Positions 32,900 through 52,469 are shown, numbered from the stretch's first letter. The stretch is 54,787 nt of DNA from Actinomycetes bacterium (GCA_030432975.1 JAUILS010000001.1:1-54787), one strand, 5' to 3'. Program-made: numbers and translations. The notes: a model not told the origin generated them from the letters alone.

Positions 32900-34150
32900 T
32901 CAGGGGAGGGTGCTGGGCTCCGTCTCCGCGTCGGGCGTGCGCACGACGTAGAGGCTGATCACCAGCAGCATGGCGAGCAGCACGCCGTCGACGACCAGCA
33001 CCACCGCGATCAGGCCGTCGAGGGTGTGCACGCTCAGGCCCAGCACGACCAGGGCGACCAGCCCGGCCCAGAGCAGGTACGCCGACCGCTGGCCGCGCCG
33101 GGCCAGCACGGCGTAGACCAGCAGCTGCAGGGCCGAGAGCAGCATGCCGATCACGGCGAACAGCCAGAGCCGGTCGGCGATCTCGGCGAACTCCGCCCCG
33201 CCGATGAAGACCAGGGCGAGGTCGGGCAGCAGCCACACCCCGGCGGTGACCGCCGCGCCGAGGGCGGCGAGCAGGGCCAGGCTGCGGGTGAGGGCGTGTC
33301 GCCGGTCCTCCTGCGTCGAGAGCGCGGGGAACGCCACGACGACGATGAACTGCGGCAGGAAGAGCGTCGCCTTGGTGAGGATCAGGCCGCCGGCGTAGAG
33401 CCCGGCGTCGCGGGCGTCGAGGACGTTGCGAGCCACGATGACGTCGACGCTGGACAGCGCGAAGAAGGCGAAGAGCGCCTGCGAGTTGTGCAGGGTCTCC
33501 CGGATCACGTTGCCCGCGCGGTGCTCGACGTCGCGGCCGCCCTCGGGGCGCGGCCGCCGCAGCGCCCACCAGCCGACGATCGCCGGCGCGAACGCCGCCA
33601 CGGCGACGGCGAGCATCGCCACGCCCTCGGTGGGGGAGAAGGCCAGGAAGAGCACACCGAGGACCAGCCGGGGGACCCCCGCGGCGACGTAGATCATCGA
33701 GAGCTGCCGCCAGCGGCGCTCCCCCTGGAGGATGCCGGCCTGGCCGCCCATCACCGTGAGCGGCACCGCGGAGACGGCGACGAGCGCGGCGTTGGGGATG
33801 CTGTCCAGGCGGAGCGCCCGGTCGATGAGCGGGCTGAGCAGGAGCAGCAGCAGCCCCAGCCCGAGCGCGGCCCGGTAGGTCACGCCGAGGATCACGCGCT
33901 CGATCTGCTGGACGTGCGCCGGGTCGGCGGAGATGCGCCGGGCCGCGGTCGCCTGCAGGCCGAGCTGGAGCACCATGATCACCAGCAGGGTGTTCATCAG
34001 CGCCGCCAGCGCGCCGTACGGCTGCGGGCCCAGCAGGCGGGCGGCCACCAGCTGGAAGCCGTAGGTCGAGACGTTCATGACCGCCATCGCGACGGCCACG
34101 ATCGAGCCGCTGCGCAGCACGCTGCGGAAGGCGCCGGTGCCGGGGATCAT
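32900..34150 (-). CDS. Wzx/MOP-like polysaccharide flippase
   Basis: About 12 TM helices; ARLLGPQPYG, DVIVARNVL..AGLY typical of polysaccharide exporters; ATG 34150 after GAGGA. Confidence 0.75.
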   Translation of the reverse strand: MIPGTGAFRSVLRSGSIVAVAMAVMNVSTYGFQLVAARLLGPQPYGALAALMNTLLVIMVLQLGLQATAARRISADPAHVQQIERVILGVTYRAALGLGLLLLLLSPLIDRALRLDSIPNAALVAVSAVPLTVMGGQAGILQGERRWRQLSMIYVAAGVPRLVLGVLFLAFSPTEGVAMLAVAVAAFAPAIVGWWALRRPRPEGGRDVEHRAGNVIRETLHNSQALFAFFALSSVDVIVARNVLDARDAGLYAGGLILTKATLFLPQFIVVVAFPALSTQEDRRHALTRSLALLAALGAAVTAGVWLLPDLALVFIGGAEFAEIADRLWLFAVIGMLLSALQLLVYAVLARRGQRSAYLLWAGLVALVVLGLSVHTLDGLIAVVLVVDGVLLAMLLVISLYVVRTPDAETEPSTLP

Positions 34151-34223
34151 CGGGGGATCCTCGAGGTCACGGACGCGCGCACCGGTCGAGACTACGCGGT
34201 CGGCCAACGACTACGGTGACGGC

Positions 34224-36014
34224 GTGGAGGATCGCCGGGGCGTGGCGCGCCGCCGCCCGTCCGGCGGGCGCAGGGGCGTGCCCTCCTGGCTGCCGTGGCT
34301 GTGGTCCACGGTGCTCGCGGTGCTGCTGCTCGGCCCGGCGCTGGGCCGGGGCTACGTGCTGAGCTACGACATGGTGTGGGTGCCGGACCTGACGCTGCGG
34401 CCCGACTTCCTGGGGGTCGGCACCGCGCTGCCGAGGGCGGTGCCGTCCGACGCCGTCGTGGCGGTGATCGACCAGGTGGTGCCGGGCATGGTGCTGCAGA
34501 AGCTGGTGCTGCTCGGGACGCTGGTGCTGGCGGGGGCCGGAGCGGCGGCGCTGGCCCGCGGCCTCGTCGGCGTCCGGGCCGACGGGGAGGTGGCGGCCCT
34601 GGGTGCGCTCGGCGGCTGCGCCGCCGCGACGGCGTACGTGTGGAACCCGTTCGTCGTCGAGCGGCTCGTGCTGGGGCACTGGCCGCTGCTCGTCGGGTAC
34701 GCCGTCCTGCCGTGGGTGGCGCTGCTCGCCCGGCGCTGGCGCGACGAGGGACGGCTGCCGCTTCCACTGCTGGTGCTGCTCCCGCTCGGCAGCCTGAGCG
34801 CCGGGTCGGGCGTGGCGACGGCGCTGGTCGCGCTCGCCTTCGGGCTGTCCCGGCGGCGCCGGGCGTCCTGGGGACTGGCGGTGGCGCTGCTGGCCGCGAA
34901 CGCCCCGTGGGTGATGTCGGGACTGCTGCACCTGGAGTCGGCGCGCAGCGACCCCGCGGCGGCGACGCTGTTCGCCGGGCACGCGGAGGGCCTGCTGCCG
35001 GCGCCGCTGGCCTTCGCCTCCCTCGGCGGCATCTGGAACACCGAGGTGGTGCCGGTCTCGCGGACCGGGTGGCTGGCGGTGGCCGGCCTGGTCGGCGTGC
35101 TCGTGCTGGCGGGCCTCGGCGCCTCCCGGTGGTGGCGCTCGACCGGCCGGAGCGACCGCGCCGGGCTGATCGGGCTGTGGGTCGTCGGCTACGCCCTCGC
35201 CCTGCTGGGCTGGGCCGCACCCGACGCGGTGGGGTGGCTGGCGGCGGAGGTCCCGGGGGGCGGGCTGCTCCGCGACAGCACCCGCCTCCTCGGCCTGTGC
35301 GCGCTGCTGCCGGCCGTGCTGGTGGCCCACGGCGCCAGGGTGGTGCGGGACCGGGTGGCCGGGGCGCCGGGGCTGGTCATGGCGGTCTCGCTGCTGCTGG
35401 TCCCGGTCGCCACCATGCCGGACGCGGGCTGGGGCGTGACCGGCCGGCTGGACGCGGTGTCCTACCCCGCGGAGTACGCCGCCATGCGCGAGGCCGTCGG
35501 TCGGGGGCCCGGAGACGTGGTGCTGCTGCCCTTCACCAGCTATCGGGAGCCGGCGTGGAACGACGGCCGCAAGCTGCTCGACCCCGTCGGCCGGGCGCAG
35601 CGTCGTGACTACGTCGCCAACGACGCGCTGGTCGTCGACGACCTGGTGATCCCGGGGGAGGACCCACGGGCGCGTGCCGTCGCGGAGGCGCTCGCGCTGC
35701 CGGCGCCGGACCAGCGGGCGGAGCGGCTGCGCGAGCTCGGGATCGAGCTCACCGTGCGCGACGCCTCCGCGTCCGGCCCCGAGGTGGAGGTGGCCGGCGA
35801 GCCGGTGGCCAGCGTCGGCACGCTGCGGGTGGTGAGCCTCGGACCGGCGACCCCGCGGACCGTGCCGCTCGGCTGGACGGTGCTGATGGGGCTCGCCTGG
35901 CTGGCCTGGCTGCTGCCGGTCGCCGGCGCCGCCGCGGCCGCGCTGGCGCGGCGGCGGCGCGCTGCTCCGGGCGGCCACCCCGGAGGGTCGCACCGCGCCC
36001 ACCACGCGGGGTGA
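34224..36014 (+). CDS. Polytopic membrane protein, Rv0226c-like (candidate GT-C fold)
   Basis: GYVLSYDMV, PRAVPSD, YVWNPFVVERLVLGHW, GGIWN, LLRD resemble Rv0226c as recalled; -10 TACGGT 6 nt before GTG. Confidence 0.75.
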   Translation: MEDRRGVARRRPSGGRRGVPSWLPWLWSTVLAVLLLGPALGRGYVLSYDMVWVPDLTLRPDFLGVGTALPRAVPSDAVVAVIDQVVPGMVLQKLVLLGTLVLAGAGAAALARGLVGVRADGEVAALGALGGCAAATAYVWNPFVVERLVLGHWPLLVGYAVLPWVALLARRWRDEGRLPLPLLVLLPLGSLSAGSGVATALVALAFGLSRRRRASWGLAVALLAANAPWVMSGLLHLESARSDPAAATLFAGHAEGLLPAPLAFASLGGIWNTEVVPVSRTGWLAVAGLVGVLVLAGLGASRWWRSTGRSDRAGLIGLWVVGYALALLGWAAPDAVGWLAAEVPGGGLLRDSTRLLGLCALLPAVLVAHGARVVRDRVAGAPGLVMAVSLLLVPVATMPDAGWGVTGRLDAVSYPAEYAAMREAVGRGPGDVVLLPFTSYREPAWNDGRKLLDPVGRAQRRDYVANDALVVDDLVIPGEDPRARAVAEALALPAPDQRAERLRELGIELTVRDASASGPEVEVAGEPVASVGTLRVVSLGPATPRTVPLGWTVLMGLAWLAWLLPVAGAAAAALARRRRAAPGGHPGGSHRAHHAG

Positions 36015-36145
36015 GCGGACTGGTCTAGACCTGGCTGGGGCGCGCTCGCCGGGAGCGGACAGGAAACGCCGGGGACGGCGGCGCCGGCAGTTCTTGTTTC
36101 GATGCTACTTGCTGGTACATTTCCTCCGACTTCATGGGAGGATCC

Positions 36146-36310
36146 GTGCCTACTTTCTTGATCACCTTCGTCTCGGTGCTCGCCGGCGGCGCTGCCGCGG
36201 CCGCCACGCTCGTGGGTGTCGTCAACGCGCAGACCGGTCCGCCGGGAGACTCGCCGGCCACGGTCGGCAACGTGAGCATCGACGAGACCTCCTACGGCTC
36301 GACGCAGTGA
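36146..36310 (+). CDS. Small 54-aa membrane/secreted protein, DUF2613 (Rv0236A)-like; missing from the ORF track
   Basis: SD GGGAGG, GTG start; MPTFLITFVSVLAGGAAAAATLVGVVNAQTGPPGDSPATVGNVSIDETSYGSTQ has one hydrophobic helix and a C-terminal YG. Confidence 0.75.
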   Translation: MPTFLITFVSVLAGGAAAAATLVGVVNAQTGPPGDSPATVGNVSIDETSYGSTQ

Positions 36311-36387
36311 CCTCCTGACGCCTCACGTGGCGTCACCTCACCCCGCAGCGGCGGCCTCGCCCGACCGAGAGGCTGCCACCTGGCTGC

Positions 36388-37545
36388 CTACGCCTCGACC
36401 TCGTCGGGGTCCTGCGCCGCCACGACGCTGCCGTGGCAGGCCACGTCGAGCACCTGCGCGAACGACCCCTGCGCGTGGTCCCAGGTGAAGCGGTGGCTCA
36501 GCTCCCGGGCGCCCTCGCCGAGCTCGCGACGACGAACCTCGTCGGTCAGCAGTGACCGCAGTGCCGCCGTGAACTCCTCCTGCGTGTCCACCAGCAGCCC
36601 TGACTCGCCGTCCGCGATCGACTCGCGGGTGCCGCCCGCCGCCCGGTAGGCCACGGTCGGGGTGCCGTGCATCGCCGCCTCGCCGACGACGAGCCCCCAG
36701 CCCTCCTTGAGCGACGGCAGCGCCATCACCCACGACTCGGCGTAGATCCGGTCCTTCTCCTCCTCGCCGACGTGGCCGGTGAAGGTGAGCCCGTCGGTGC
36801 CGTGCGCCGCGGCGTACTGCTGGAGCGCGTCGGACCACCAGCCGGAGCCCACGATGGTCAGGGTGAGGTCGGGCATCTCCCTGCGCAGCTCGGCCCAGGC
36901 GTCGATCGCGTGCTCGACCTGCTTGTGCGGCACCAGCCTCCCGACCACACAGATCGACGGGTGCGCGGAGGGCCGCTCGCTGTCGTCGGCCACCGGGTCG
37001 GTGCCGTTGTGCACCACGGCGATGCGGGACCGGTCGACGCCGAGGCCCGCGAGCTCGTCGCGGGTGGCCTGGGACACCGCGACGTACTGGCAGTGGCGGT
37101 AGAGCCAGGGGGAGAACCGGCTCTCGATCCACCAGCCGACCCGGCCGACGAGCCCGGGGTAGACCACGGGCCACTGCTCGCGGTGGACGTGGTGGACCAG
37201 CAGCACCACCGGACTGCGGGTCACCAGCCGGGTGAAGAAGGGGAGACCATTCTGCACGTCGACCACCGCGTCCACGTGGCCGAAGCGCCGCAGCGCCAGG
37301 GCGAGCATGCCGTGGAGGTAGACACCCATCTTGGAGCCGCGGCGCACGAACCGGATCCCGTCGCGGGTCTCGCGGCCGGGAGCGGCGCCGTGGGCGGCGC
37401 AGAAGATGGTCACCTTCAGGCCCCGGGCAACCAGCCCGGCGGCGACCTTCTCGAGGTAGATCTCCGCGCCGCCGCCCTCGGGGTTGCGGGTGTCGCGCCA
37501 GCTGAAGAACACGACATGGCAGCCGACGAGGTCAGGGTGGAGCAT
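36388..37545 (-). CDS. GT4 family glycosyltransferase, Rv0225-like
   Basis: WRDTRNPEGGGAE, HHVHREQW, VGRLVPHK, KEGWGLVVGEA (EX7E). Confidence 0.9.
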   Translation of the reverse strand: MLHPDLVGCHVVFFSWRDTRNPEGGGAEIYLEKVAAGLVARGLKVTIFCAAHGAAPGRETRDGIRFVRRGSKMGVYLHGMLALALRRFGHVDAVVDVQNGLPFFTRLVTRSPVVLLVHHVHREQWPVVYPGLVGRVGWWIESRFSPWLYRHCQYVAVSQATRDELAGLGVDRSRIAVVHNGTDPVADDSERPSAHPSICVVGRLVPHKQVEHAIDAWAELRREMPDLTLTIVGSGWWSDALQQYAAAHGTDGLTFTGHVGEEEKDRIYAESWVMALPSLKEGWGLVVGEAAMHGTPTVAYRAAGGTRESIADGESGLLVDTQEEFTAALRSLLTDEVRRRELGEGARELSHRFTWDHAQGSFAQVLDVACHGSVVAAQDPDEVEA

Positions 37546-37582
37546 CGGCGTAGGTTACCCCCGAGTCGGATAAGGTCTGCGC

Positions 37583-38362
37583 GTGTTGCGGCGATCCGGC
37601 TCCCCGGCAGCGTGGCGGGCGACCCTGGGGCGGTCGGTCCGGCTCTTCCGCGACTTCCGCTACGAGCAGCCCGACCCGGCCCGGTTCTACACCGCGCTGG
37701 CCGAGGACTCGACGGCCATGCTCGGGACGTACGCCGACCTCGACGGCCGCACCGTGCTGGACGTGGGCGGCGGCCCCGGCTACTTCCGCGAGGCGTTCGA
37801 GCGGGCCGGGGCGACCTACGTCGCCCTCGACGCCGACGTCGGCGAGCTGGCCGGGGTGGGGGAGATCCACCCGCGCACCGTGATCGGCAGCGGGATGCGG
37901 CTGCCGTTCCGCGACGGTGCCGTCGACGTCACCTACTCCTCCAACGTGCTCGAGCACGTGCCCGACCCCTGGCAGATGGCCCGCGAGATGGTCCGGGTGA
38001 CCCGCCCGGGTGGGCTGGTGTTCGTCAGCTACACCGTCTGGTTCGGCCCCTGGGGCGGTCACGAGACCGCGCCCTGGCACTACGTCTCCGGTCGCTACGC
38101 CCGCCGGCGCTACCGCCGCAAGCACGGCCACGAGCCCAAGAACAGGTTCGGCGAGTCGCTGTTCGAGGTCACCGTCGGCGACGGGCTCCGCTTCGTCCGC
38201 GACCAGGCCGAGGCCGATGTGGTCGCGGTGTTCCCGCGCTACCACCCCGCCTGGGCCTACTGGCTGCTCCGGGTCCCGGTGCTCCGCGAGGTGCTCACCT
38301 GGAACCTGATGATCGTGCTGCGGCGACCCGACGACGGGTCCGCGCACCGGTCCGCGGCGTGA
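37583..38362 (+). CDS. Class I SAM methyltransferase, Rv0224c/MtrP-like
   Basis: FRYEQPDPARFY, LDVGGGPG, SSNVLEHV, GGHET, KNRFGESLF, REVLTWN. Confidence 0.88.
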   Translation: MLRRSGSPAAWRATLGRSVRLFRDFRYEQPDPARFYTALAEDSTAMLGTYADLDGRTVLDVGGGPGYFREAFERAGATYVALDADVGELAGVGEIHPRTVIGSGMRLPFRDGAVDVTYSSNVLEHVPDPWQMAREMVRVTRPGGLVFVSYTVWFGPWGGHETAPWHYVSGRYARRRYRRKHGHEPKNRFGESLFEVTVGDGLRFVRDQAEADVVAVFPRYHPAWAYWLLRVPVLREVLTWNLMIVLRRPDDGSAHRSAA

Positions 38363-40245
38363 GCCAGCAGGCGCCCGGCCGCCGGCAGCGCTGGGGTGCG
38401 GTGCTCCGCTCGCCCTGGACGGTGCTCGGCGTCGCCCTCGCCCTGGTCGGGGCCCAGCTCGGGCTGCGGGCCTGGGCGGTGGCGGGCGGCTGGTTCCTCG
38501 GGGAGGACCTGCTCGGGCTGGCCGACCTCACCGGCCCGGTGGCCGCCGCCGACCTGGTCGACGTACGCGCCGACCACCTGTCGCCCGTGGCCGGGCTGCT
38601 CACCTGGCTGCTGGCCGCCTCCACGCCCTACGACTGGGCGCTGGCGACGCTGCTGGTCGTCGGCCTGACGGCGCTCGCCGACCTGGCCGCCCTGGTGTTC
38701 GTGGTCCGCCTGGTCGGTCTGCGGTGGCTGGCGCTGGTGCCCCTCGGGTGGTACCTCCTGAGCGTCGTCACGCTGCCCGCCTCGATGTGGTGGTCCTCGG
38801 CGGTGATCCAGCTGCCGCTCCAGGCGGCGGTGTTCGGCGCGCTCACCTCGCACCTCGAGCACCTGCGGTCCGGGCGGCGGCGGTTCGCCCTGCTGGCGTG
38901 GCTCGCGCTGGCGGTCGGCATGGCGTGCGACGTCGGCATCGTCTACACCGTCGTGCCGCTGCTGTTCCTCTCGCTCTACTTCTCCGACGGGCGCGGGGTG
39001 CGCGGCCGGCTCGCCGGGCTCTGGCGGCAGCGCCTCGTGTGGGGTGGCTACGTCGTCCTGCTGGCGGGCTACGTCGCGGTCTACCTCCGGCTCCGACCGC
39101 CCGAGCAGGGGACCGAGGGCGACGCCGTCCGCACCGCGCTGCTGCTGGCACGCGAGTCGCTGCTGCCCGTGCTGGTCGGGGGGCCGTGGCGGTGGGGGCC
39201 GCCCGACCCGACCCCGCTGGTGCCCGCCGAGGCGCCCGCCGCCTGGGTGGCGGGCGCGATGGTGCTGGCGGCGCTCGGCGTGCTGCTGGCCTGGCGGCGC
39301 CGCCGGGCCACGGCCTGGGTGCTGGCCCCCGTCGGGCTGCTCGCCGGCGCCCATGCGGGGGTGCTCACGGCCACGCGGGGGGCGTTCCCCGCAGAGGTGC
39401 TCGCCCACGAGGTGCGCTACCTGGCGGTGCTCGCCCCGATGCTGGTCCTCGCTCTGGCCGTGCTCGTGGCGGGACCGGCGCCCGCCCGTCCCGAGCCGTG
39501 GGTGCCCAGACCCGTCCCGGCCGCAGGCGGGCCGGCCCCGGCCTGTCCCCGCTGGCGCCGCGCGGTCCCCGTCGTCGCCGGCGTCGCGGTGGTGGGTGGG
39601 TTCGTGGCCGGCTCACTCGTCTCGACCCTGGAGTACGCCGCCGCGTGGCACGGCGACTTCCCCACCCGGGTCTATGTTCGTCACGTGCAGGAGCAGTCGG
39701 TGGCCGCGCCGTTGCGCATCGTCGACCAGCCGGTGCCGCCCGCGGTGGTGCCGCCGCAGTGGGACGAGCCCGAGCGCACCCGCCCCTCCTGGGTGTTCCG
39801 GCCCCTCGGGGCCCGGGTGCTGGCGTCGCTCGAGGGCAACGACCTGCTGATGCTCGACGAGGAGGGCCTGGCCCGCCCCGCGGAGGTGCGCCCCCTGGTG
39901 GCGTCGGCCCCCGCTCCGGCCGACGGCTGCGGCTATCGCGTCGGCCCCGAGGAGGGCACGTCCGACGTCATCGTGCCGCTCGCGCCGGTGCCCGGCGAGG
40001 ACCCGGTGCCGGAGCTGTGGTGGGGCTCGGTGGGCTACCTCGCCAGTGCCGACGGCCGGATGGGCATCGCGGTCGGCGACGAGCTGCGGACGATCTCGGT
40101 GCGCCGCGGGCTGCACCGCTACGTCTGGCTCGGCCGGGGCACGCCCCAGGCGGCGGCCCGGCTGGTGTCGCTCTCCGACACCGAGGTCTGCGTCGACCAG
40201 GTCTCGGCCGGGTCGTTGGCGATCGACGAGGAAGAGGGCGGGTGA
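38359..40245 (+). CDS. 628-aa polytopic membrane protein with C-terminal extracellular domain (candidate GT-C-like transferase)
   Basis: GTGA overlaps at both ends; about 11-12 TM helices; acidic pair (GED) and HLSP after TM1; soluble C-terminus with two Cys. Confidence 0.7.
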   Translation: MSQQAPGRRQRWGAVLRSPWTVLGVALALVGAQLGLRAWAVAGGWFLGEDLLGLADLTGPVAAADLVDVRADHLSPVAGLLTWLLAASTPYDWALATLLVVGLTALADLAALVFVVRLVGLRWLALVPLGWYLLSVVTLPASMWWSSAVIQLPLQAAVFGALTSHLEHLRSGRRRFALLAWLALAVGMACDVGIVYTVVPLLFLSLYFSDGRGVRGRLAGLWRQRLVWGGYVVLLAGYVAVYLRLRPPEQGTEGDAVRTALLLARESLLPVLVGGPWRWGPPDPTPLVPAEAPAAWVAGAMVLAALGVLLAWRRRRATAWVLAPVGLLAGAHAGVLTATRGAFPAEVLAHEVRYLAVLAPMLVLALAVLVAGPAPARPEPWVPRPVPAAGGPAPACPRWRRAVPVVAGVAVVGGFVAGSLVSTLEYAAAWHGDFPTRVYVRHVQEQSVAAPLRIVDQPVPPAVVPPQWDEPERTRPSWVFRPLGARVLASLEGNDLLMLDEEGLARPAEVRPLVASAPAPADGCGYRVGPEEGTSDVIVPLAPVPGEDPVPELWWGSVGYLASADGRMGIAVGDELRTISVRRGLHRYVWLGRGTPQAAARLVSLSDTEVCVDQVSAGSLAIDEEEGG

Positions 40246-41510
40246 GCCCGCTGCGCTGGCCGCGGCGCGCCCGCCCCGCGGCGCCGCCCGAGCCCTACGT
40301 CCCCGCCGACACCGGCCGTCCCGCGTCGGCCGTGGTGCTGCCCGGGCTCGACACCGTGCGCGCCCTGGGCGCCTTCCTCGTGCTGGCGACCCACGTGGCC
40401 TTCTGGTCGGGCAACTACGGCTCGTCGCTGTGGGGCACCCTGCTGTCCCGCCTCGACGTCGGCGTCGCGCTCTTCTTCGTGCTGTCGGGCTTCCTGCTGT
40501 CGCGCCCCTATCTCGCCGCCGCGCGCACCGGTGGCCGCCGGCCGGGCACCCGCCACTACCTGTGGAAGCGCGTCCTGCGGATCATGCCGCCCTACTGGAT
40601 CGCCGTGGTGCCGGCGCTGGCCCTGCTCGCCGACAACGCCGGCGTCACGCCGCGCGACTGGCTGCGCACGCTCACCCTCACCGACATCTACCTCGCCGAC
40701 CGGATGCCGGCGGGCCTCACCCAGATGTGGAGCCTGGCCACCGAGCTGGCGTTCTACCTCTGCCTGCCGCTGCTGATGTGGGGCTGGAACGCCGTGACCC
40801 GCGGCCGGCGTCGCGACCTCACGGTGGTCGGGCTGGTGGGTCTGGCCGCCGCGCTGAGCGTGGGCTGGGTGCTGCTGGTGCCGACGGAGTGGGCCGCGCA
40901 GGCCCCGATGATCCTGCAGTGGCTGCCGACGTACCTCGTCTGGTTCGCGATCGGGATCGCGCTGTCCCACCTCCACGAGCATGTCGAGGCCGGCAGCGAC
41001 CCCGGACGCCGGCCGGTGCTCGACCGGGTGGTGGCGCTCGGCCGGCTGCCCGGCGTGTGCCTGCTGCTCGCCGCCGCCGTGATGCTCGTCGCCTCGACCC
41101 CGCTCGCCGGGCCGTCCCTGCTGTTGCCCGCGACGACCGGGCAGGTGGTCACCAAGACCATGCTCTACGCCGTGGTGGGCGGTCTCGTGGTGCTGCCGTC
41201 GGTGTTCCGCGCTCCCGGCGTCTATCGCACCGTGTCCGAGCACCGCGTGCTGCGACACCTCGGTCACATCTCCTACGGCGTGTTCTGCGTGCACGTGCTG
41301 GTGCTCCACCTGGTCACCCACGTGACGGGGTGGGAGCTCTTCCGCGGGCACGGGCTGGAGATGCTGGTGCTGACGTCGGTGATCAGCGTGGTCCTGGCCG
41401 AGGGGATCTACTGGCTGGTCGAGCGGCCGCTGTCGCGCTTCCGGACGCTGGGCCGGTCGAGGACCGCGGCGGTCGCGACGACGGCCAGCGGCACCAGCAT
41501 CAGCCACTGA
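40242..41510 (+). CDS. Acyltransferase family 3 (OafA/TmaT-like) membrane O-acyltransferase
   Basis: LDTVRA, FFVLSGFL, KRVLRIMP, WSLATELAFY, LGHISY, VERP. Confidence 0.92.
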   Translation: MSPLRWPRRARPAAPPEPYVPADTGRPASAVVLPGLDTVRALGAFLVLATHVAFWSGNYGSSLWGTLLSRLDVGVALFFVLSGFLLSRPYLAAARTGGRRPGTRHYLWKRVLRIMPPYWIAVVPALALLADNAGVTPRDWLRTLTLTDIYLADRMPAGLTQMWSLATELAFYLCLPLLMWGWNAVTRGRRRDLTVVGLVGLAAALSVGWVLLVPTEWAAQAPMILQWLPTYLVWFAIGIALSHLHEHVEAGSDPGRRPVLDRVVALGRLPGVCLLLAAAVMLVASTPLAGPSLLLPATTGQVVTKTMLYAVVGGLVVLPSVFRAPGVYRTVSEHRVLRHLGHISYGVFCVHVLVLHLVTHVTGWELFRGHGLEMLVLTSVISVVLAEGIYWLVERPLSRFRTLGRSRTAAVATTASGTSISH

Positions 41511-44500
41511 GCGACGGGGGAGCTGCCGGCCCAGCTCAGCGTGCCGCCCCAGGGGCGGACGGCGTACCACCCGCCGACGAGCAGCAGCGGCAGCAGCGCC
41601 ACGGCGGACGCGACGTCCCACCGGGAGCGCGCCGCCCAGAGCAGGCCGGCGGTCGCGAGCAGCACCACGGCCCCGACGGTGCCGGCGAGGACGCCACCGA
41701 CCGCCAGCCACCCGGCGGTCGCCACCGCCGGCGCCCAGCGGGAGGGGCCGAGCGGCGGGTGGTCGGTGCGTCCGGGACGCCGGAGGGTGACCACCAGCAG
41801 GAGCAGCGCCAGGGCCAGGGCCACCGCGCCCGCCACCAGCCCCTGGCGGTACGCCGTCTCCGGGGCGTAGTCGACCCGGACGGGCTCCGCCTCGGCGCCC
41901 AGCGCGAAGCCCTGCTGCCAGCCGTCGACGACCAGCGGCGACAGCGCTTCGTCGCCCGCCGACGCCTCCCAGCCCGGGTTGGCGTTGTGGCGCAGCACGA
42001 GGAAGCGCGCGTCGGGGCCGACGGGGAGCGTCCCGTCGGCGGCGGGGGTCACGGGGGCCGGTGGGTCGACGAGCGTGTCCGGCGAGCCCAGCCGGGTGAG
42101 GACGAGGGTCTGCGGCGAGAACGCCTCCGAGGCGCGCAGCCGCACCCGGTTGCGCCCCGCCTCCAGCCGCAGCGGCCCGGTGGCACAGGGGCGGGCGAGC
42201 ACGGGCCGCCCGCGGTGGACGTCCACCGGGGCCGCCACGACGGCGGTCCGCACCACGCGATGCACGTTGAGGCGCAGCTCGGGGCCGCTCCCGCAGCCGT
42301 AGTCGACCGGCTCGGTGCCGACGCCGACCGGCCCGACCGGCCGGCCGTTCAGCTCGATCTCGCTGACTCCGACGCCGAGGTTGGTGACGCTGCCGTCGAA
42401 GCCGATGCTGCGCACCTCGGTGGAACGGTCGACGGTGAGGGTGACCCGGTCGACGCGGACCGGGTCGAGCCTCCCCTCGCCGTCGGCGTCGAGCGACACC
42501 AGCTGGCTGCCGCCGGGGTAGTCGACCCGCACCGCCGTCGGTCGGCGCGCCGGCGCCTCGGGGTCCAGGGCCAGGGTGATCCGCGAGATCCGCCGCGGCT
42601 CGACCAGGGTGAGGTCCAGCGAGGGGGAGCCGTCGATGGGCGAGGACACCCAGGTGGTGGTCGGGTCGTCGTCGATCGTCGCGAGCGGGCCCGCCGCGGA
42701 GACGCTGGTGGTGGCGCTCGACGAGGCGGCGACGTCGACCAGCGAGTCGCGGGTGAGCAGCTCCTGGACCACCGACCCGGGCCGGGGGACGGCGCGGACG
42801 GCAAGGTCGTAGATCGCCGGCTGGGGGAGCGCCACGATCCGCCGCATGATCCCGCTGTCCTCGCCGATCGACTGCCGGCCGGGGGTGCACCGGAGGCCGC
42901 CGTCGATCGTCACGCAGCCGCTGCTGCCGTCGATCCCGTTGTCGAGGGAGACCACGTCCGGGGCCCCCCAGGCGGCGGGGACGGGAGGGGTGACCAGCCA
43001 GCGACGCACCGGGACGCCGGCCAGGTGCACCTCCGCCAGCGACAGCTCCCTCCCCGGCTGGCCGGACGACTCGCGCACCTCGACCCAGGACGTGGTGCCC
43101 GCCGGCAGGTCGAGGGTCAACCGGTCGCCGGGCTCGACGAACGTCGGCTCGGTGCTGCCCTGCTGGGTGCGCACCTCGAGCTCGGAGGTGGTCGACGGCT
43201 CCGGGCCGACCGTCAGCTCCAGCTCACCCACGTCGGTGGGGCGCTTGAGCTCGATGCGCAGCCATGGGGTGCCGCCCCTGCCGGGGTCGGAGATCCAGGC
43301 GGAGTCGGGGTCGCCGTCGAAGGCGGCGTACGGTCCGGCGGTGACGCGGCGGTTCGCGACACCGCGCGAGAGCGCCAGCGACGAGCTGGCCCTCACCCCG
43401 GCCACTCCCTCGACCCGGGCGCGGGTGCGCCAGGCGCCGTCGTCGTCGGTGAGCCGGTAGTCGCGCACGGGGGACAGCGAGGCCGTCTCGGCGTCGGTCA
43501 GGGTCGGGGTGACCGCATCGTGCAGCCGGCCGAAGACCCGGTCGCGGCGACGCAGCCCGTCGGTGAGCACCACCGGTGCCTCCGGGTCGGTGGTCGGGTC
43601 GGTGTCGACACCGAGCCGGACCGGCTGGTCGTCGAGGACGCCCTGCTCGCTGAGAGTGAGCAGGTCCTCCGGGCCGCCGACCACGACCGGCAGCCCCTCG
43701 GCCGTGGAGACGGCCGCCTCCGGGGCCACCTCGAAGACCTCGACCGCGGCGTACTGGTCCTGCCAGCCGTGGGCGACCACGGCCTCCTGGTCGCCGAAGT
43801 CCAGCCGGGCCTCGCCGCCCACCAGCGGCCCGAAGGCGGTGCGGAACGAGATCCCCGGAGATGTCGCGACCGCCTGGTGCACCAGCGTCGGGTCGATCAC
43901 GTCGGTGGACCGGTCGAGGTCGTTGCGCAGCACCAGCCAGCGGACCCCCATCCGTCGGAGGTACGCCGTCAGCGCGGCCGAGCCCTCGCCGCGCTGGAGA
44001 CGCTCCTCGACCGCGTCGAGCGCCCGGATGGTGCCCCCCGGCGTCAGCGGGATGGCGTTGCGCACCGCCCAGGGGGAGAGCGCCAGGGGCTGCAGCGGCT
44101 CGTCCTGGGTGTTGCCCCAGGTGTAGTCGCCGAAGGACGAGCCCGGCACCAGGAGCGCGCGGCCGCCGGCGTCGGCCCCGACGTCGGACTCCTGGCCGGG
44201 ACCGTCGGAGCCGGGCTGTTGGTCGGCCAGCCAGGCGGCGGTCTCCTGCCAGTAGTCCGGGATGCCGTCGAAGCTCTCCGCGGGCATCAGCCGGCCCACC
44301 GCGAGCGGCAGCGCGGCGCCGGTCACGGCGACGACCGCGAGCCAGGCGGGCCCGAGCCGCGAGAGCGACTCCCACCGCGACGGACGGGAGGGCGGCTCGG
44401 CCCGGCGGCGGTGCCAGTCCTCCATGACCACGGCCACCAGGTGGCCGAGACCGAGCACCAGCGGCAGTCGCACCACGGGGTCGAACTTGTGCACGTTGCG

Positions 44501-45595
44501 GAGCGGCGCCAGGACGCCGTCGAGCAGGCCGCGCACCTCGGCGGCGCCCCAGCCCTGGGCGGCACCGGCGTGGCCCGCGGTCACCATCAGGACGCCCACG
44601 AGCAGGCCGGACACCAGGAACGTGCGGTGCGGGTTGTCGCGGCGGACGACGCCCGCGACGCCGAGCGCGATGACCAGGGTGCTGTTGAGGATCGGTGCGG
44701 CGTCGGAGATGAGGTCGTTGCCGGCGCGCCACCGCGGCTCGACGTAGGGGATCCAGGCCGAGGTGCCGCGCAGCACGTTGAAGAGGGTGGTGGGGTACGT
44801 CGTGACGCCGCTGCTCTCGATGTAGTCGAGGAACGGCGGGCTGTAGGCGCCCAGCAGGAACAGCGGGACCAGCCACCACAGGCAGGCCAGCAGCGTGGTG
44901 AGCGGCCACCAGAGCATCAGGGTGCGGCGGCGCGGCCCCGCCTCGCGGGTGAGCAGCCACACCACACCCAGCGGGATCACGGCGAAGGTGGCCGCCGCGT
45001 TGACCCCGCCGACCATCCCCACCGCCAGGCCCGCGGCGATCGCGGCCCGCCTGGCGGACCCCTGCCGCGAGCCGTGGACGAGGGCCAGCAGCACCCAGGG
45101 GGCGACGGCCGAGGGCCAGGCCTCGATCGAGATCGGCCCGACCGTCGTCAGCAGGCGGGGGGAGAGGGCGTAGGCGAACCCGGTGACCAGCAGGGCGGTG
45201 TCGCCGCGCGTCCCGAGGGCGCGGGCCAGGCGGGCCGCGCCCTGGAACGCGACCACGAGGACCAGGGCCTGCCACAGGCGCTGCACCAGCCACCCGGGGA
45301 CCCCGAGCGCCTCGCCGAGCAGGAAGAACGGCCCCATCGGCCAGAGGTAGCCGTAGGTCTGGTTGCCCACCTGGCCGAACGCTCCGGTGGGGTCCCAGAG
45401 GGTGAGGGCGCGGGCCAGGCTGGTCGCCGGGTCCACGACCAGGTCGAGCTTGGTGTCGGCCACCATCCGCCCGGCGTCCTGGACGACGCAGGCGGCCAGC
45501 AGCAGCGCCGAGGCGGCGAGCAGCCGGAGGCCCGTCCGGGAGCGCGCCTCGTCCGATGCGGGTGGTGCGTGGCTGGCACCGGCGAGGCGAGACAT
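41408..45595 (-). CDS. aftD: AftD-like (DUF3367) GT-C glycosyltransferase, 1395 aa, with extracellular carbohydrate-binding-like modules
   Basis: DTKLDL, GQVGNQTYGYLWPMGPFF, GGVNAAAT, FLDYIES, LRNVHKFDP, DGDPDSAW, DGWQQG; family is clear but the donor sugar is not. Confidence 0.85.
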   Translation of the reverse strand: MSRLAGASHAPPASDEARSRTGLRLLAASALLLAACVVQDAGRMVADTKLDLVVDPATSLARALTLWDPTGAFGQVGNQTYGYLWPMGPFFLLGEALGVPGWLVQRLWQALVLVVAFQGAARLARALGTRGDTALLVTGFAYALSPRLLTTVGPISIEAWPSAVAPWVLLALVHGSRQGSARRAAIAAGLAVGMVGGVNAAATFAVIPLGVVWLLTREAGPRRRTLMLWWPLTTLLACLWWLVPLFLLGAYSPPFLDYIESSGVTTYPTTLFNVLRGTSAWIPYVEPRWRAGNDLISDAAPILNSTLVIALGVAGVVRRDNPHRTFLVSGLLVGVLMVTAGHAGAAQGWGAAEVRGLLDGVLAPLRNVHKFDPVVRLPLVLGLGHLVAVVMEDWHRRRAEPPSRPSRWESLSRLGPAWLAVVAVTGAALPLAVGRLMPAESFDGIPDYWQETAAWLADQQPGSDGPGQESDVGADAGGRALLVPGSSFGDYTWGNTQDEPLQPLALSPWAVRNAIPLTPGGTIRALDAVEERLQRGEGSAALTAYLRRMGVRWLVLRNDLDRSTDVIDPTLVHQAVATSPGISFRTAFGPLVGGEARLDFGDQEAVVAHGWQDQYAAVEVFEVAPEAAVSTAEGLPVVVGGPEDLLTLSEQGVLDDQPVRLGVDTDPTTDPEAPVVLTDGLRRRDRVFGRLHDAVTPTLTDAETASLSPVRDYRLTDDDGAWRTRARVEGVAGVRASSSLALSRGVANRRVTAGPYAAFDGDPDSAWISDPGRGGTPWLRIELKRPTDVGELELTVGPEPSTTSELEVRTQQGSTEPTFVEPGDRLTLDLPAGTTSWVEVRESSGQPGRELSLAEVHLAGVPVRRWLVTPPVPAAWGAPDVVSLDNGIDGSSGCVTIDGGLRCTPGRQSIGEDSGIMRRIVALPQPAIYDLAVRAVPRPGSVVQELLTRDSLVDVAASSSATTSVSAAGPLATIDDDPTTTWVSSPIDGSPSLDLTLVEPRRISRITLALDPEAPARRPTAVRVDYPGGSQLVSLDADGEGRLDPVRVDRVTLTVDRSTEVRSIGFDGSVTNLGVGVSEIELNGRPVGPVGVGTEPVDYGCGSGPELRLNVHRVVRTAVVAAPVDVHRGRPVLARPCATGPLRLEAGRNRVRLRASEAFSPQTLVLTRLGSPDTLVDPPAPVTPAADGTLPVGPDARFLVLRHNANPGWEASAGDEALSPLVVDGWQQGFALGAEAEPVRVDYAPETAYRQGLVAGAVALALALLLLVVTLRRPGRTDHPPLGPSRWAPAVATAGWLAVGGVLAGTVGAVVLLATAGLLWAARSRWDVASAVALLPLLLVGGWYAVRPWGGTLSWAGSSPVAQWLMLVPLAVVATAAVLDRPSVRKRDSGRSTSQ

Positions 45596-45766
45596 GTCGC
45601 GCAGACTCTACTGCCCGCCCGAGCCCCCGAGCCGCGGTCGCGGTGGCCGTCGTACCCGCCGGCCCGCTGACGCTACTGGTCAGTAGATTTTGCGGTGTGC
45701 CTCCTTCTGCACGCTCGGAGTTCCTGCTAATGTGCGGCGACTCATGTCGGAGCCGGGAGGCACAAC

Positions 45767-46660
45767 GTGCGCAAGATCGTCAGTGGGCTGCTCATGGCCC
45801 TGGGTGGATTTCTTCTCGTCGCGGCGGTGGTCGCCACCACCTGGGCGCCCGGCCAGGCCAAGCGGGCCCCGCTCGACACGGACTCGGTGACCCGGCTCTC
45901 CGGCACCGCGGCCGCGCTGCCCAACGGTGACACCAACCAGAGCGTGCGCGCGGTGAGCGTCACCAAGGCCGACTCCGAGGCCTCCGACGACGACATCGTC
46001 GTCTACGCCAGCTACACCTGCCTGGTGGTCGACACCCCCGGCACGCCCGACTGCGGCGAGCCCGGCTTCGACGAGGAGGCCGACCCCAACCTGGTGACCG
46101 CGGGCGAGCCCGAGGTGTTCGCGACCGACCGGCGCACCGGCGTGGCCGTCAACGACAGCGCCTACCTCCCCGAGGGCACCCCCGCGACGGAGGGCCTGGT
46201 CAACAAGTTCCCCTTCGACACCGAGCAGGAGTCCTACGAGTTCTGGGACGGCGTGCTCGACGCGACCGTGACCACGGAGTTCGAGGAGGTCGAGGAGGTC
46301 AACGGGCTGGAGACCTACCGCTTCCACTACGTCGTCACCGACGAGCCGGCCAAGATCTCCGGCGACATCGAGGGCCTCTACAGCATGGACAAGACCATGT
46401 GGATCGAGCCCAAGACCGGCCAGATCATCGACCAGGAGCAGCACGACGTCCGTAAGATCGGCGACCAGACGCTGCTCGACGTCAACCTCTCCTTCACCGA
46501 CGAGCAGGTGCAGGTCAACGTCGACGACGCCAACGACAACCTGTCCACCCTGTCGCTGATCACCTCGACCATCCCGCTGATCGGCTTCATCGGGGGCCCG
46601 CTGCTGATCCTGGGTGGCGTGGCGCTGCTGATGACCGGGCGCCGCAAGGCCGACGCCTGA
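45767..46660 (+). CDS. DUF3068 family membrane-anchored protein (Rv0227c-like)
   Basis: N- and C-terminal TM helices, acidic loop, DRRTG, KFPFDTE, WIEPKTGQII. Confidence 0.85.
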   Translation: MRKIVSGLLMALGGFLLVAAVVATTWAPGQAKRAPLDTDSVTRLSGTAAALPNGDTNQSVRAVSVTKADSEASDDDIVVYASYTCLVVDTPGTPDCGEPGFDEEADPNLVTAGEPEVFATDRRTGVAVNDSAYLPEGTPATEGLVNKFPFDTEQESYEFWDGVLDATVTTEFEEVEEVNGLETYRFHYVVTDEPAKISGDIEGLYSMDKTMWIEPKTGQIIDQEQHDVRKIGDQTLLDVNLSFTDEQVQVNVDDANDNLSTLSLITSTIPLIGFIGGPLLILGGVALLMTGRRKADA

Positions 46661-51561: not shown

Positions 51562-51575
51562 CTAGGGTGGAGCCC

Positions 51576-52469
51576 GTGCCGGAGACGACCGCCCCCGCGG
51601 GCAAGACCCACGTGCTGGGGGTGGGTGCCCAGAAGGCCGGCACGTCGTGGCTGCACGACTATCTCGCCCGGTCGCCGCAGGTGGCCACCGGACCGCTGAA
51701 GGAGTACCACCTCTTCGACGTGCTCGACCTCGACTCGGCCGCCGGTCTGCGTGAGACGATGCTGGGCAAGGCCGAGCGGGCGCTGGCCCGCCTGGCCAAG
51801 GGGGCCGACCAGGCCCGGCCGCCCGACGCCCCCGCGCTGCTGCGCACCGTCTTCTACGCCGACCCGACGGCGTACTTCGACCACGTGGCGGGGCTGCTCG
51901 CGCCGGACGGCATCCGCGCCACCACCGACCTCACCCCGGCGTACGCCGGCCTGTCGGCGGAGCGCTTCACCGCGATCAAGGACGAGCTCGCCGCCCGGGG
52001 GATCGGCGTCCACGTGGTCTTCCTGCTGCGGGACCCGGTCGAGCGGATCTGGTCGGCGGAGCGGATGTTTCACCGCAACCACCCCGAGCAGGAGCGCGTC
52101 GAGACCGTGGAGGAGCGGGTGCTGCGCACCTTCGACCACCCCTTCCACGAGGTGCGCACGCGCTACCACGACACCCTCGCCGTGCTCGACCGCGCCTTCG
52201 CGCCCGACGAGGTCACCGTCGTGCTCTACGAGCGCCTCTTCGACGCCGACACCCTCGCCCGGCTGTGTGGGCGGATCGGCATCGACCCGCCGGCCGCCGA
52301 CCTCGACCACCGGGTCAACAGCTCGCCGAAGCGCGACGGGCTCTCCGCCGAGACCGTCGCCCGGGTGGCGCACCACTACGCCGACGTCTATGCCGCCGCG
52401 GCCGACCGGCTGGGTGCCGAGCAGATCCGCGGGGCCTGGCCGCACGCCTCGCTGGTGCTGCCCGCCTGA
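51576..52469 (+). CDS. PAPS-dependent sulfotransferase family protein
   Basis: 5'-PSB loop GAQKAGTSWL, KEYHLFD, 3'-PB LRDPVERIWS, LYE; -10 TAGGGT 7 nt before GTG. Confidence 0.85.
   Translation: MPETTAPAGKTHVLGVGAQKAGTSWLHDYLARSPQVATGPLKEYHLFDVLDLDSAAGLRETMLGKAERALARLAKGADQARPPDAPALLRTVFYADPTAYFDHVAGLLAPDGIRATTDLTPAYAGLSAERFTAIKDELAARGIGVHVVFLLRDPVERIWSAERMFHRNHPEQERVETVEERVLRTFDHPFHEVRTRYHDTLAVLDRAFAPDEVTVVLYERLFDADTLARLCGRIGIDPPAADLDHRVNSSPKRDGLSAETVARVAHHYADVYAAAADRLGAEQIRGAWPHASLVLPA

What the first reader, a model, noticed from the sequence alone, without database searches (positions are those of the whole stretch)
32900..46660. Mycobacterial-type Rv0224c-Rv0228/aftD envelope gene set plus a flippase in an apparently mycolate-free actinobacterium: candidate undescribed surface glycosylation system
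Seen: nine contiguous genes between polA and rpsA: a Wzx-like flippase, an Rv0226c-like membrane protein, a DUF2613-like peptide, GT4, a SAM methyltransferase, a second large membrane protein, an AT3 acyltransferase, a 1395-aa AftD-like protein and DUF3068. Established (recalled): in Corynebacteriales, homologues (Rv0224c/MtrP, Rv0225, Rv0226c, Rv0227c, Rv0228/TmaT, aftD, Rv0236A) cluster together and are linked to trehalose monomycolate transport and arabinan/lipoglycan synthesis. Nocardioidaceae are not known to have mycolates or arabinogalactan, and no DPA synthesis genes (ubiA, dprE1/E2) or mmpL3 occur in this window. Inference: the set is an older self-contained pathway. GT4 would load a lipid-linked sugar, the methyl- and acyltransferase modify it, the flippase exports it, and GT-C proteins polymerise it or transfer it to a lipid, wall or protein acceptor. 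This would also suggest reinterpreting the mycobacterial functions.
Basis: partly seen in the sequence, partly recalled or inferred. Interest (0 to 1): 0.85.

Follow-up and report, generated by a model that had tools for sequence, protein, structure and literature searches.

The report
Mycobacterial tmaT-aftD locus without mycolates
A Nocardioides-type bacterium, in whose 92%-complete genome no genes for mycolic acids or for the mycobacterial arabinose donor were found, carries the whole gene set that mycobacteria need to export mycolic acids, plus a likely lipid-sugar flippase and a third predicted membrane glycosyltransferase, so the set likely builds a still unknown surface glycan, and such harmless hosts would let the real job of these essential mycobacterial genes be tested.

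Summary
All nine genes are real. Six are the best genome-wide matches of the mycobacterial AftD, TmaT, PgfA/LmcA, MmpA, Rv0225-type GT4 and MtrP; one is a DUF2613-type peptide. The host is a Nocardioidaceae genome with no Pks13, Emb, AftA/B, UbiA or DprE1/E2 found. The set is widespread: of 75 MmpA-bearing Actinomycetes genomes outside the mycolate family, 74 have AftD, none Pks13, and 43 of the 74 lack the arabinose-donor (DPA) synthase. AftD keeps its five essential residues under purifying selection. Added here: the flippase sits in 53 of 60 loci, including Rhodococcus, and is fused to the GT4 in both orders; the second membrane protein is an unnamed GT-C family. Against 'self-contained': ubiA-dprE1-dprE2 is repeatedly inserted into the cassette in relatives, the flippase survives cassette loss, and the product is unknown. 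AftD's wide spread is already published (Tan 2020); I found no paper on the whole cassette outside Corynebacteriales. This scan earlier noted the DPA-bearing form (e1-2553387) and distant AftD/MmpA clusters on other DNA. Verdict: new variant of a known locus, likely an old lipid-linked glycan pathway with plug-in sugar donors.

The parts
32900..34150 (-). Wzx/MOP-type flippase, 416 aa, about 12 TM helices (ORF could extend to 34207)
   Evidence: 12 hydrophobic segments; family members hit PF01943 8/22 and PF13440 7/22, the window's own copy does not; in 53 of 60 GT4-centred loci; fused to the GT4 in 44 protein clusters
34242..36014 (+). MmpA (Rv0226c-type) GT-C protein, an AftD paralogue without the CBM block (start uncertain; ATG 34077 overlaps the flippase)
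   Evidence: NF053599 403.6 bits over cut-off 210; model pLDDT 91 matches AftD 6w98 at Z 20.5, rmsd 4.6, 485 aligned, then PglB Z 17.5; invariant loop-1 Asp 24/24
36146..36310 (+). DUF2613 (Rv0236A)-type single-TM peptide, 54 aa, with C-terminal YG motif
   Evidence: leave-one-out profile E 5e-11; Mycobacterium-type and Kribbella-type members hit PF11021; found in 40 of 60 loci by a gene caller that misses some short ORFs
36388..37545 (-). Rv0225/MSMEG_0311-type GT4 glycosyltransferase, 385 aa
   Evidence: 45% identical best match of the G166 GT4; EX7E motif E281-E289; dN/dS 0.09
37583..38362 (+). MtrP (Rv0224c)-type SAM methyltransferase, 259 aa, divergent from the GT4 as in mycobacteria
   Evidence: PF08241; 51% identical best match of the G166 protein; 50 of 60 loci
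38359..40245 (+). Unnamed GT-C family protein ('BigM'), 628 aa, with a C-terminal CBM-like beta domain
   Evidence: none of 26 members hits a Pfam family apart from one weak DUF5985 match, E 0.006; model pLDDT 88; OST/PMT/ArnT fold Z 18.2, rmsd 5.6, 386 aligned; residues 510-620 CBM Z 9.4; invariant D50 after TM1
40242..41510 (+). TmaT-type AT3 O-acyltransferase, 422 aa, 3' end overlapping aftD by 103 nt
   Evidence: PF01757; 36% best match of the G166 TmaT; R40, H51, R110, R113 align with M. smegmatis R27, H38, R96, R99 via L029; groups with TmaT apart from the genome's other AT3
41408..45595 (-). AftD-type GT-C with CBMs, 1395 aa
   Evidence: PF11847 766 bits, PF24607; 6W98 E 3e-179 over residues 17-1384; K49, D51, E260, K370, D498 = the five essential residues; dN/dS 0.23 against a relative in which DPPR synthase was also not found
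45767..46660 (+). PgfA/LmcA (Rv0227c, DUF3068) two-TM lipid-binding-fold protein, 297 aa
   Evidence: NF053601 161.9 over 160; PF11271 191 bits; 55 of 60 loci
30176..32896 (+). polA, left flank (not part of the cassette)
   Evidence: PF00476
46688..47515 (-). second SAM methyltransferase, right flank; kept next to the flippase when the cassette is lost, so probably not part of it
   Evidence: L072, L073

Best explanation
This nine-gene block is the orthologue of the mycobacterial tmaT-aftD locus in a host where no mycolate or DPA genes were found, and it likely builds a lipid-anchored surface glycan: the GT4 would put a sugar from a nucleotide donor on a membrane lipid, the MtrP-type enzyme would methylate it, the flippase would export it, three predicted GT-C enzymes would extend or decorate it outside, and the AT3 would acetylate it. 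Shown: gene content, orthology, folds, conserved catalytic residues, co-occurrence, GT4-flippase fusions, insertion of donor-making genes into the cassette of relatives. Inferred: MmpA and AftD, with the DUF2613 peptide and PgfA as helpers, are the core outer steps; BigM-type enzymes add side sugars from whatever polyprenyl-phosphate sugar the host makes (DPA where ubiA-dprE1-dprE2 is inserted; here probably polyprenyl-P-mannose from the Ppm1-like gene, or the GT4 product itself). The mycolate-transport role in mycobacteria would be a later use of this older pathway.
For: Best matches of G166's AftD, TmaT, PgfA, MmpA, GT4 and MtrP all fall in this block, while its glf, glfT1/2, ubiA, aftA, aftB, emb, ag85 and gtrA find nothing and pks13, dprE1, dprE2 only weak superfamily hits. 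Of 75 MmpA-positive genomes outside the mycolate family f8: AftD 74, Pks13 over cut-off 0 (controls 5 of 5), DPPR synthase 31, so 43 of 74 have AftD without it. Of 60 GT4-centred loci of 19 kb or more: AftD 59, MmpA 58, PgfA 55, flippase 53, MtrP 50, peptide 40, BigM 34, AT3 32. Flippase and GT4 are fused in 44 of 58 hits, 42 flippase-first and 2 GT4-first, and in two cassette loci in opposite order (L080, L041). GT-C folds for MmpA and BigM. Clean loss of the block between flippase and flanking MTase in G008 and G018. BigM is doubled in 6 of 11 loci holding ubiA plus dprE1 and in 0 of 77 others. Sun et al. (10.64898/2026.07.31.741936) find TmaT's acetyl group facing the periplasm and raise that TMM may not be its substrate; Parks et al. 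(10.64898/2026.07.31.741767) find one shared phenotype for mmpA, cgp_3166, mtrP, tmaT and aftD, as a linear pathway would give.
Against: No product, donor or acceptor is known; no expression shown (contigs only). The cassette has no initiating phosphoglycosyl transferase, and that GT4 enzymes seldom make GT-C donors is recalled knowledge, so what the GT4 acts on is open. ubiA lies within 15 kb of aftD in 16 of 31 non-f8 genomes that have it, which ties the cassette to arabinose. The flippase was found in 15 of 15 other genus genomes, including 4 without AftD, so it may have another job; it was not found in 3 of 3 genomes of genus g11 (Mycobacterium by tree) or 9 of 9 f7 genomes, where AftD is present or essential. 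AT3 and MtrP are missing from many loci. The M. smegmatis interface residue D386 is not kept (Leu in the window).
Confidence: 0.55

Rival explanations
1. It is at heart an arabinofuranosylation system. AftD, MmpA and BigM all transfer Araf; hosts without ubiA/dprE make the donor another way, for example through the GT4 and flippase from an unknown arabinose nucleotide.
For: [quoted passage not shown]
Against: No arabinose-nucleotide genes in the cassette; other donor modules (UDP-glucose dehydrogenase-like + GT2 + epimerase in L091, L135, L145; GT2 alone in L012, L013, L016) are inserted too; that Nocardioides walls lack arabinose is recalled, not checked.
Confidence: 0.17
2. It is a protein glycosylation system: the GT4-built, methylated lipid-linked glycan is flipped and moved en bloc onto surface proteins by MmpA or BigM acting as oligosaccharyltransferases.
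For: After AftD, MmpA's nearest solved folds are PglB and STT3 (Z 16-17.5); BigM's top rows are STT3, Pmt4 and AglB (Z 17.4-18.2); Wzx plus GT4 is the layout of such pathways (recalled).
Against: These Z values are tied or close among GT-C families and show no function; the host has a separate Pmt-like gene; AftD binds arabinan glycans on arrays (Tan preprint).
Confidence: 0.13
3. It is mainly a lipid-trafficking and regulatory scaffold, as proposed in corynebacteria: the AT3 acetylates a non-mycolate glycolipid that PgfA and an MMPL transporter move, and the GT-C proteins act as partners.
For: AcTMM is lost in tmaT, mtrP, mmpA and aftD mutants; LmcA has a CD36-like cavity; an MMPL gene 35% identical to MmpL3 exists in the host.
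Against: AT3 is absent from 28 of 60 loci; no MMPL gene recurs among the neighbours clustered; catalytic residues of all three GT-Cs are conserved; AftD catalysis is needed in M. smegmatis.
Confidence: 0.1
4. It is a decaying relic or a recent transfer from mycobacteria with no working role here.
For: The block is patchy in the genus (AftD in 11 of 18) and can be lost.
Against: Intact ORFs, dN/dS 0.09-0.45 for the seven cassette enzymes compared; same polA-rpsA site across the order; mycolate taxa form one clade (100/100) that excludes the window in the MmpA tree, likewise in AftD trees; AU test rejects window + Mycobacterium (p 0.0006); MmpA in 16 of 17 other family genomes of at least 95% completeness.
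Confidence: 0.03

Closest known systems
tmaT-aftD locus of Corynebacteriales (C. glutamicum cgp_3161-3168 / NCgl2759-2764; M. smegmatis MSMEG_0310-0319 and 0359)
   Same: AftD, TmaT, LmcA/PgfA, MmpA, GT4, MtrP and DUF2613 orthologues; mmpA-GT4 convergent and GT4-mtrP divergent layout; catalytic residues of AftD and TmaT
   Different: No Pks13, Ag85, true MmpL3, Emb, AftA/B or DPA pathway found in the host; adds a Wzx-type flippase and a third GT-C; can be lost as a block; interface Asp386 not kept; AT3 overlaps aftD tail to tail
AftD (PF11847; PDB 6W98), DPA-dependent arabinofuranosyltransferase
   Same: Full-length homology, domain order, five essential residues; homologues in Propionibacteriales already noted by Tan et al.
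   Different: The known donor pathway is not found in this host or in 43 of 74 comparable genomes, so donor and product must differ or come by another route
PIM/lipomannan-type lipoglycan assembly (GT4 inside, GT-C outside, LmcA helper)
   Same: Logic of a cytoplasmic GT4 priming a lipid and GT-Cs working outside; LmcA orthologue; Ppm1-like donor synthase in the genome
   Different: The PIM acyltransferase model NF005919 (PatA label recalled) finds nothing in 4 of 4 genus genomes; the GT-Cs are not Mpt/PimE types
Three-component Gtr-type and Wzx-dependent surface glycosylation
   Same: Lipid-linked sugar, flippase, GT-C, optional O-acetyl and O-methyl tailoring
   Different: GT4 in place of GT2, Wzx in place of GtrA, three GT-Cs, no Wzy/Wzz or initiating transferase in the block

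Membership tests
tmaT-aftD locus | Orthologues of AftD, TmaT, LmcA/PgfA, MmpA, GT4, MtrP together | tested here: met
tmaT-aftD locus | Conserved local gene order (mmpA> GT4< mtrP>) | tested here: met
   window and L054/L059 share it, with the peptide inserted here
tmaT-aftD locus | Host makes trehalose mycolates (Pks13, Ag85, MmpL3/CmpL) | tested here: not met
   genome 92% complete; Pks13 over cut-off in 0 of 16 other family genomes
tmaT-aftD locus | TmaT active-site Arg/His residues | tested here: met
   R40, H51, R110, R113 in 39-43 of 43; R365 not mapped
tmaT-aftD locus | AftD interface residue Asp386 (M. smegmatis) | tested here: not met
   Leu at that column in the window; region poorly aligned
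tmaT-aftD locus | Physical TmaT-AftD complex | not tested
   no complex was folded
tmaT-aftD locus | Needed for acetyl-TMM and mycolate export | not testable with these tools
   needs genetics and lipidomics
AftD arabinofuranosyltransferase | GT-C domain plus CBMs, five essential residues | tested here: met
AftD arabinofuranosyltransferase | DPA supply (UbiA, DprE1, DprE2) in the host | tested here: not met
   0 of 16 genus genomes over cut-off; 3 of 16 other family genomes have UbiA
AftD arabinofuranosyltransferase | ACP binding at the C-terminal helices | not tested
   residues not mapped
AftD arabinofuranosyltransferase | Transfers Araf to arabinan | not testable with these tools
   needs an assay
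Wzx/MOP flippase | About 12 TM helices and PF01943/PF13440 membership | tested here: inconclusive
   12 TM; own copy no hit, 8 of 22 and 7 of 22 relatives hit; no solved relative by sequence; not folded
GT-C superfamily (BigM, MmpA) | GT-C fold and conserved acidic residue in the first external loop | tested here: met
Wzx/Wzy-dependent polysaccharide pathway | Initiating phosphoglycosyl transferase, Wzy and Wzz in the cluster | tested here: not met
   all nine genes are otherwise assigned
Three-component Gtr glycosylation | GT2 polyprenyl-P-sugar synthase and GtrA flippase with the GT-C | tested here: not met
   no GT2 in this cassette; a single-sequence GtrA profile finds nothing in the genome; GT2 present in variant loci L012, L013, L016

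The most novel reading that the evidence does not exclude
The tmaT-aftD locus is an ancient actinobacterial pathway for an undiscovered methylated, acetylated lipid-linked glycan. Mycobacteria still make it: the Rv0225-type GT4 primes it, MtrP, MmpA, AftD and TmaT finish it, and the known defects in mycolate export and arabinogalactan ligation are downstream of its loss. [quoted passage not shown]
Probability: 0.3. Interest if true: 0.9.

Novelty: new variant of a known kind. Interest (0 to 1): 0.72.

Why it matters
These genes are essential in mycobacteria and their biochemistry is unsettled: two July 2026 preprints show a TmaT-AftD complex but leave TmaT's substrate and AftD's exact role open, and the GT4, MtrP and MmpA have no known reaction. 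Finding the whole set, under selection, in many hosts without mycolates and often without DPA means that mycolate acetylation cannot be the original job and DPA cannot be AftD's only donor, unless unknown enzymes supply them. It contradicts the statement that MmpA has no homologues outside corynebacteria and mycobacteria (PMC8698533). It adds two candidate components, a flippase fused to or beside the GT4 and an unnamed GT-C family tied to DPA modules. Because some relatives have lost the block cleanly, it may be dispensable in cultured, harmless actinomycetes, where knockouts could reveal the product directly.

Tried and rejected
Folding AftD (18-600) with the AT3 was not available, so there is no verdict on the complex. 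A collection scan with the MmpA alignment could not run for want of conserved stretches; the GT4 alignment was used. Expression: four runs labelled RNA hold 60-75% of the words, but contigs run across intergenic and divergent regions at flat depth, so they may be DNA and show nothing on expression. A pairwise BLAST of the peptide to a DUF2613-positive peptide was not significant (E 0.82); only the profile links them. The idea that the flippase marks DPA-free hosts was dropped: it is in 8 of 11 loci with ubiA plus dprE1 and in mycolate producers. A PIM/lipomannan anchor was considered and lowered. A recalled lead, O-methylated galactomannans in Kribbella or Actinoplanes walls as the product, got no support: the 20 papers listed did not mention Kribbella. 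No Trm112-type partner was convincingly found in this genome (one weak hit, E 2e-4). In one search a Tomitella AftD fragment and the L041 fusion gave long-branch artefacts; the fragment was left out. Literature searches for the cassette outside Corynebacteriales gave only Tan et al. on AftD alone; the library lacks most subscription papers and preprint supplements were closed, so a supplementary figure elsewhere could already show the wider locus.


Full report
1. Observation. The nine ORFs are present at the stated coordinates with coding-type third-position GC. Family scans name six: MmpA (NF053599, 403.6 bits, cut-off 210), GT4, a class I SAM methyltransferase, an AT3 acyltransferase, AftD (PF11847, 766 bits, with CBMs) and PgfA/LmcA (NF053601, 161.9, cut-off 160). 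The methyltransferase, the second membrane protein (here BigM, 38359-40245) and the AT3 are chained by GTGA overlaps; the AT3 overlaps aftD tail to tail by 103 nt. Contigs from 2 of 4 public runs laid bridge most of the block in the same order.

2. Host. The nearest genus-named GT4 relatives are Nocardioides and Marmoricola (63-70% identity), and AftD, AT3, GT4 and MmpA trees place the window among them. The genome is 3.43 Mb in 358 contigs, 92% complete. Family f8 is read as the mycolate family because its members carry AftA, Glf, Pks13 and MmpL3 and group with named Mycobacterium and Rhodococcus; f3 groups with named Kribbella; f7 as Streptomyces is my inference. Proteins of the G166 arabinogalactan/mycolate cluster find no glf, glfT, ubiA, aftA, aftB, emb, ag85 or gtrA in the host, and only weak superfamily hits for pks13, dprE1 and dprE2, whereas its AftD, TmaT (36%), PgfA, MmpA, GT4 (45%) and MtrP (51%) all hit this block best (six-frame profile check). 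An MMPL protein scores 475 bits on the MmpL3 model, cut-off 1400. Incompleteness is unlikely to explain the gaps: DPPR synthase and DprE1 pass cut-off in 0 of 16 genus genomes, two of them single-contig, although a second draw found DPPR synthase in 3 of 16 family genomes. The host does have an lnt-linked Ppm1-like GT2, a Pmt-like gene, one GT87, gmd and galE.

3. Spread. AftD matched 52 of 301 genomes drawn across the phylum, 49 over cut-off, including other classes (the tally includes one unpublished genome, G118, on which nothing else rests). MmpA passed cut-off in 91 of 251 class genomes; of the 92 with E at most 1e-30, 16 are f8 and one is the host. The other 75, with 5 of the 16 f8 as controls, were profiled: AftD 74 of 75, Pks13 0 of 75 against 5 of 5 (five candidates scored per genome), DPPR synthase 31 of 75. 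So 43 of 74 have AftD and MmpA without the known DPA route. Around 80 GT4 matches (the best 80 of 588 confirmed, from a partial scan), the 60 loci of 19 kb or more hold AftD 59, MmpA 58, PgfA 55, flippase 53, MtrP 50, peptide 40, BigM 34 and AT3 32 times (my own gene caller and profiles; kin are not independent). Hosts named include Aeromicrobium, Kribbella, Actinoplanes, Micromonospora, Blastococcus, Amycolatopsis, Knoellia, Cryptosporangium, Rhodococcus and Mycobacterium. Mycolate taxa form one clade in the MmpA tree (100/100) and in AftD trees that excludes the window; an AU test rejects window plus Mycobacterium (p 0.0006). Roots are midpoint only and Corynebacterium was not sampled, so 'older than mycolates' is an inference from breadth, not a dated result.

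4. The proteins. AftD keeps K49, D51, E260, K370 and D498, which map by motif and spacing, through a Mycobacterium-type sequence, onto M. smegmatis K23, D25, E235, K345 and D459; they are in 42-43 of 43 aligned AftDs. In the more distant AftDs of other classes several of these positions differ. The AT3 keeps four TmaT active-site residues, but AftD's interface Asp386 is not kept. Of 48 AT3 genes in 88 loci, 39 lie directly beside aftD on the opposite strand, 37 with overlapping ends. MmpA folds as AftD without the CBM block (Z 20.5, rmsd 4.6, 485 aligned), then PglB (Z 17.5). BigM has no passing Pfam family among 26 members but models as a GT-C (Z 18.2, rmsd 5.6, 386 aligned to STT3; Pmt4, AglB and ArnT close behind) with a CBM-like tail and an invariant loop-1 Asp. 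Against the closest relative, in which DPPR synthase was also not found, dN/dS is 0.09 for GT4 and AT3, 0.23 AftD, 0.25 PgfA, 0.27 BigM, 0.34 MmpA, 0.45 MtrP and 0.67 for the peptide (simple counting; the flippase was cut off in that locus).

5. The flippase. It belongs to a Wzx-type family (8 of 22 members hit PF01943; the window's copy does not). It is fused to the Rv0225-type GT4 in 44 of 58 hits to a fusion query, 42 flippase-first (flippase part weak on my profile, 8-44 bits) and 2 GT4-first with Pfam PF01943; two cassette loci carry the two orders (L080, L041). It is part of the locus in mycolate producers too: 8 of 9 long loci titled Rhodococcus, Tomitella or Mycobacterium (the Mycobacterium one lacks it) and 4 of 4 unnamed f8 genomes outside genus g11, but 0 of 3 in g11. 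Against a dedicated role: it persists in all 4 AftD-negative genus genomes tested; in G008 and G018 it is all that remains of the block, in G009 two copies sit by another GT2/GT-C set, and G010 keeps most of the block with AftD replaced. It was not found in 9 of 9 f7 genomes, 5 of which have an AftD locus without MmpA or AT3.

6. Plug-in donors. ubiA-dprE1-dprE2 is inserted at different points inside or at the edge of the cassette in L095, L102, L103, L123 and L179-L186, and ubiA is within 15 kb of aftD in 16 of 31 non-f8 genomes that have it. A dehydrogenase-GT2-epimerase module appears in L091, L135 and L145, and a GT2 alone in L012, L013 and L016. BigM is doubled in 6 of 11 loci with ubiA plus dprE1 and in 0 of 77 without (8 of the 11 were picked for a nearby ubiA; three duplicate loci, one tiny fetch and loci under 19 kb were dropped). 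This is the main evidence against 'self-contained' and suggests BigM paralogues use the extra donors.

7. Mechanism. Most likely (0.55): GT4 primes a membrane lipid with a sugar, MtrP methylates, the flippase exports, MmpA and AftD with the peptide and PgfA extend or transfer it, BigM decorates it from a polyprenyl-phosphate sugar, and the AT3 beside AftD acetylates it. Every catalytic step is inferred. Rivals: an arabinosylation system with an unknown donor route (0.17), protein glycosylation (0.13), a lipid-trafficking scaffold (0.10), a relic (0.03).

8. What is known. Parks et al. (10.64898/2026.07.31.741767; parts 1-5 of 8 read) show a TmaT-AftD complex in C. glutamicum, a shared phenotype for mmpA, cgp_3166, mtrP, tmaT and aftD, and note that MmpA and Cgp_3166 may be glycosyltransferases. 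Sun et al. (10.64898/2026.07.31.741936; parts 1-4 of 6) solve the complex and say TMM may not be TmaT's substrate. 10.64898/2026.07.15.738315 (passages) predicts the same complex and a Trm112-like partner of MtrP. Tan et al. (10.1101/2019.12.22.885152; passages) already report AftD homologues in 11 other orders, including Propionibacteriales. Cashmore et al. (PMC8698533; passages) state that MmpA has no homologue outside corynebacteria and mycobacteria, which contradict. The GT4 has no known role (10.1101/2023.09.11.557293; passages); LmcA has a CD36-like cavity (PMC8972800; passages); a C. glutamicum ubiA mutant keeps some LAM arabinose (PMC2884958; abstract and passages). Searches found no paper on the whole cassette outside Corynebacteriales, on its flippase, or on AftD in DPA-free hosts; preprint supplements were closed and most subscription papers are not held. 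Earlier notes of this scan describe the DPA-bearing form with two unnamed GT-Cs (e1-2553387) and more distant AftD/MmpA clusters; they are unchecked notes, not support.

9. Verdict. Real, conserved and selected; a new variant of a known locus rather than a new kind of system. Its value is that it separates these essential mycobacterial genes from mycolates and DPA and offers harmless hosts in which the product can be sought. Interest 0.72.

Noticed in passing
L022-L026 (family f7, probably Streptomyces): Variant locus: peptide, PgfA (4 of 5), GT4, MTase, AftD, an unnamed 430-aa protein, second MTase, a membrane protein, a Trm112-family protein (PF03966) and in 4 of 5 an FkbM MTase; no MmpA, AT3 or flippase. 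The Trm112 gene fits the predicted MtrP-Trm112 pairing of a 2026 preprint.
   Followed up: partly
window 41408-41510 and related loci: The AT3 and aftD genes overlap tail to tail by 23-118 nt in 37 of 39 adjacent pairs, mostly about 100 nt; an unusually steady convergent overlap.
   Followed up: partly
L034, L039, L042, L078, L079 (family f44, another class): Distant AftD with GT4, GT2, two epimerases, a GMC oxidoreductase, several unnamed GT-C-like proteins and nearby ubiA/dprE1/dprE2; no MmpA.
   Followed up: partly
L075 (G010) and L193 (G541): Cassettes in which AftD is replaced by a GT2 plus another 680-aa membrane protein while MmpA, peptide, GT4, PgfA and flippase stay.
   Followed up: no
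window 47584-49677 and 51567-52469: A secreted arylsulfotransferase-like protein (PF05935, cadherin-like domain) between the cassette and rpsA, and an ORF that looks like a sulfotransferase after rpsA (motif recalled).
   Followed up: no
G000 C116:8678-12003 (L166): A separate 712-aa PMT/ArnT-like GT-C with an adjacent GT2, a likely independent three-component glycosylation pair.
   Followed up: no
G000 C296 (L168:6177-8170) and L080:10170-11165: A gmd plus gmd-like gene pair in the host; a gmd also sits directly before the flippase-GT4 fusion in G158, a hint that the GT4 donor could be a GDP-deoxyhexose.
   Followed up: partly
L104: Record titled Streptomyces sp. SID13031 has the same AT3 and gene order as G028 and groups with Kribbella; the name is probably wrong.
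   Followed up: partly
L100:11356-16289 (Aeromicrobium alkaliterrae): Four genes that look like nonulosonate or KDO-type sugar synthesis are inserted between GT4 and the peptide (by inspection only).
   Followed up: no
L038, L112, L134: Loci with two aftD copies; in L134 the second copy is of a distant type.
   Followed up: no
L076 (G013): Most cassette genes are split by frameshifts, as is polA's neighbourhood; may be sequencing error rather than decay.
   Followed up: no
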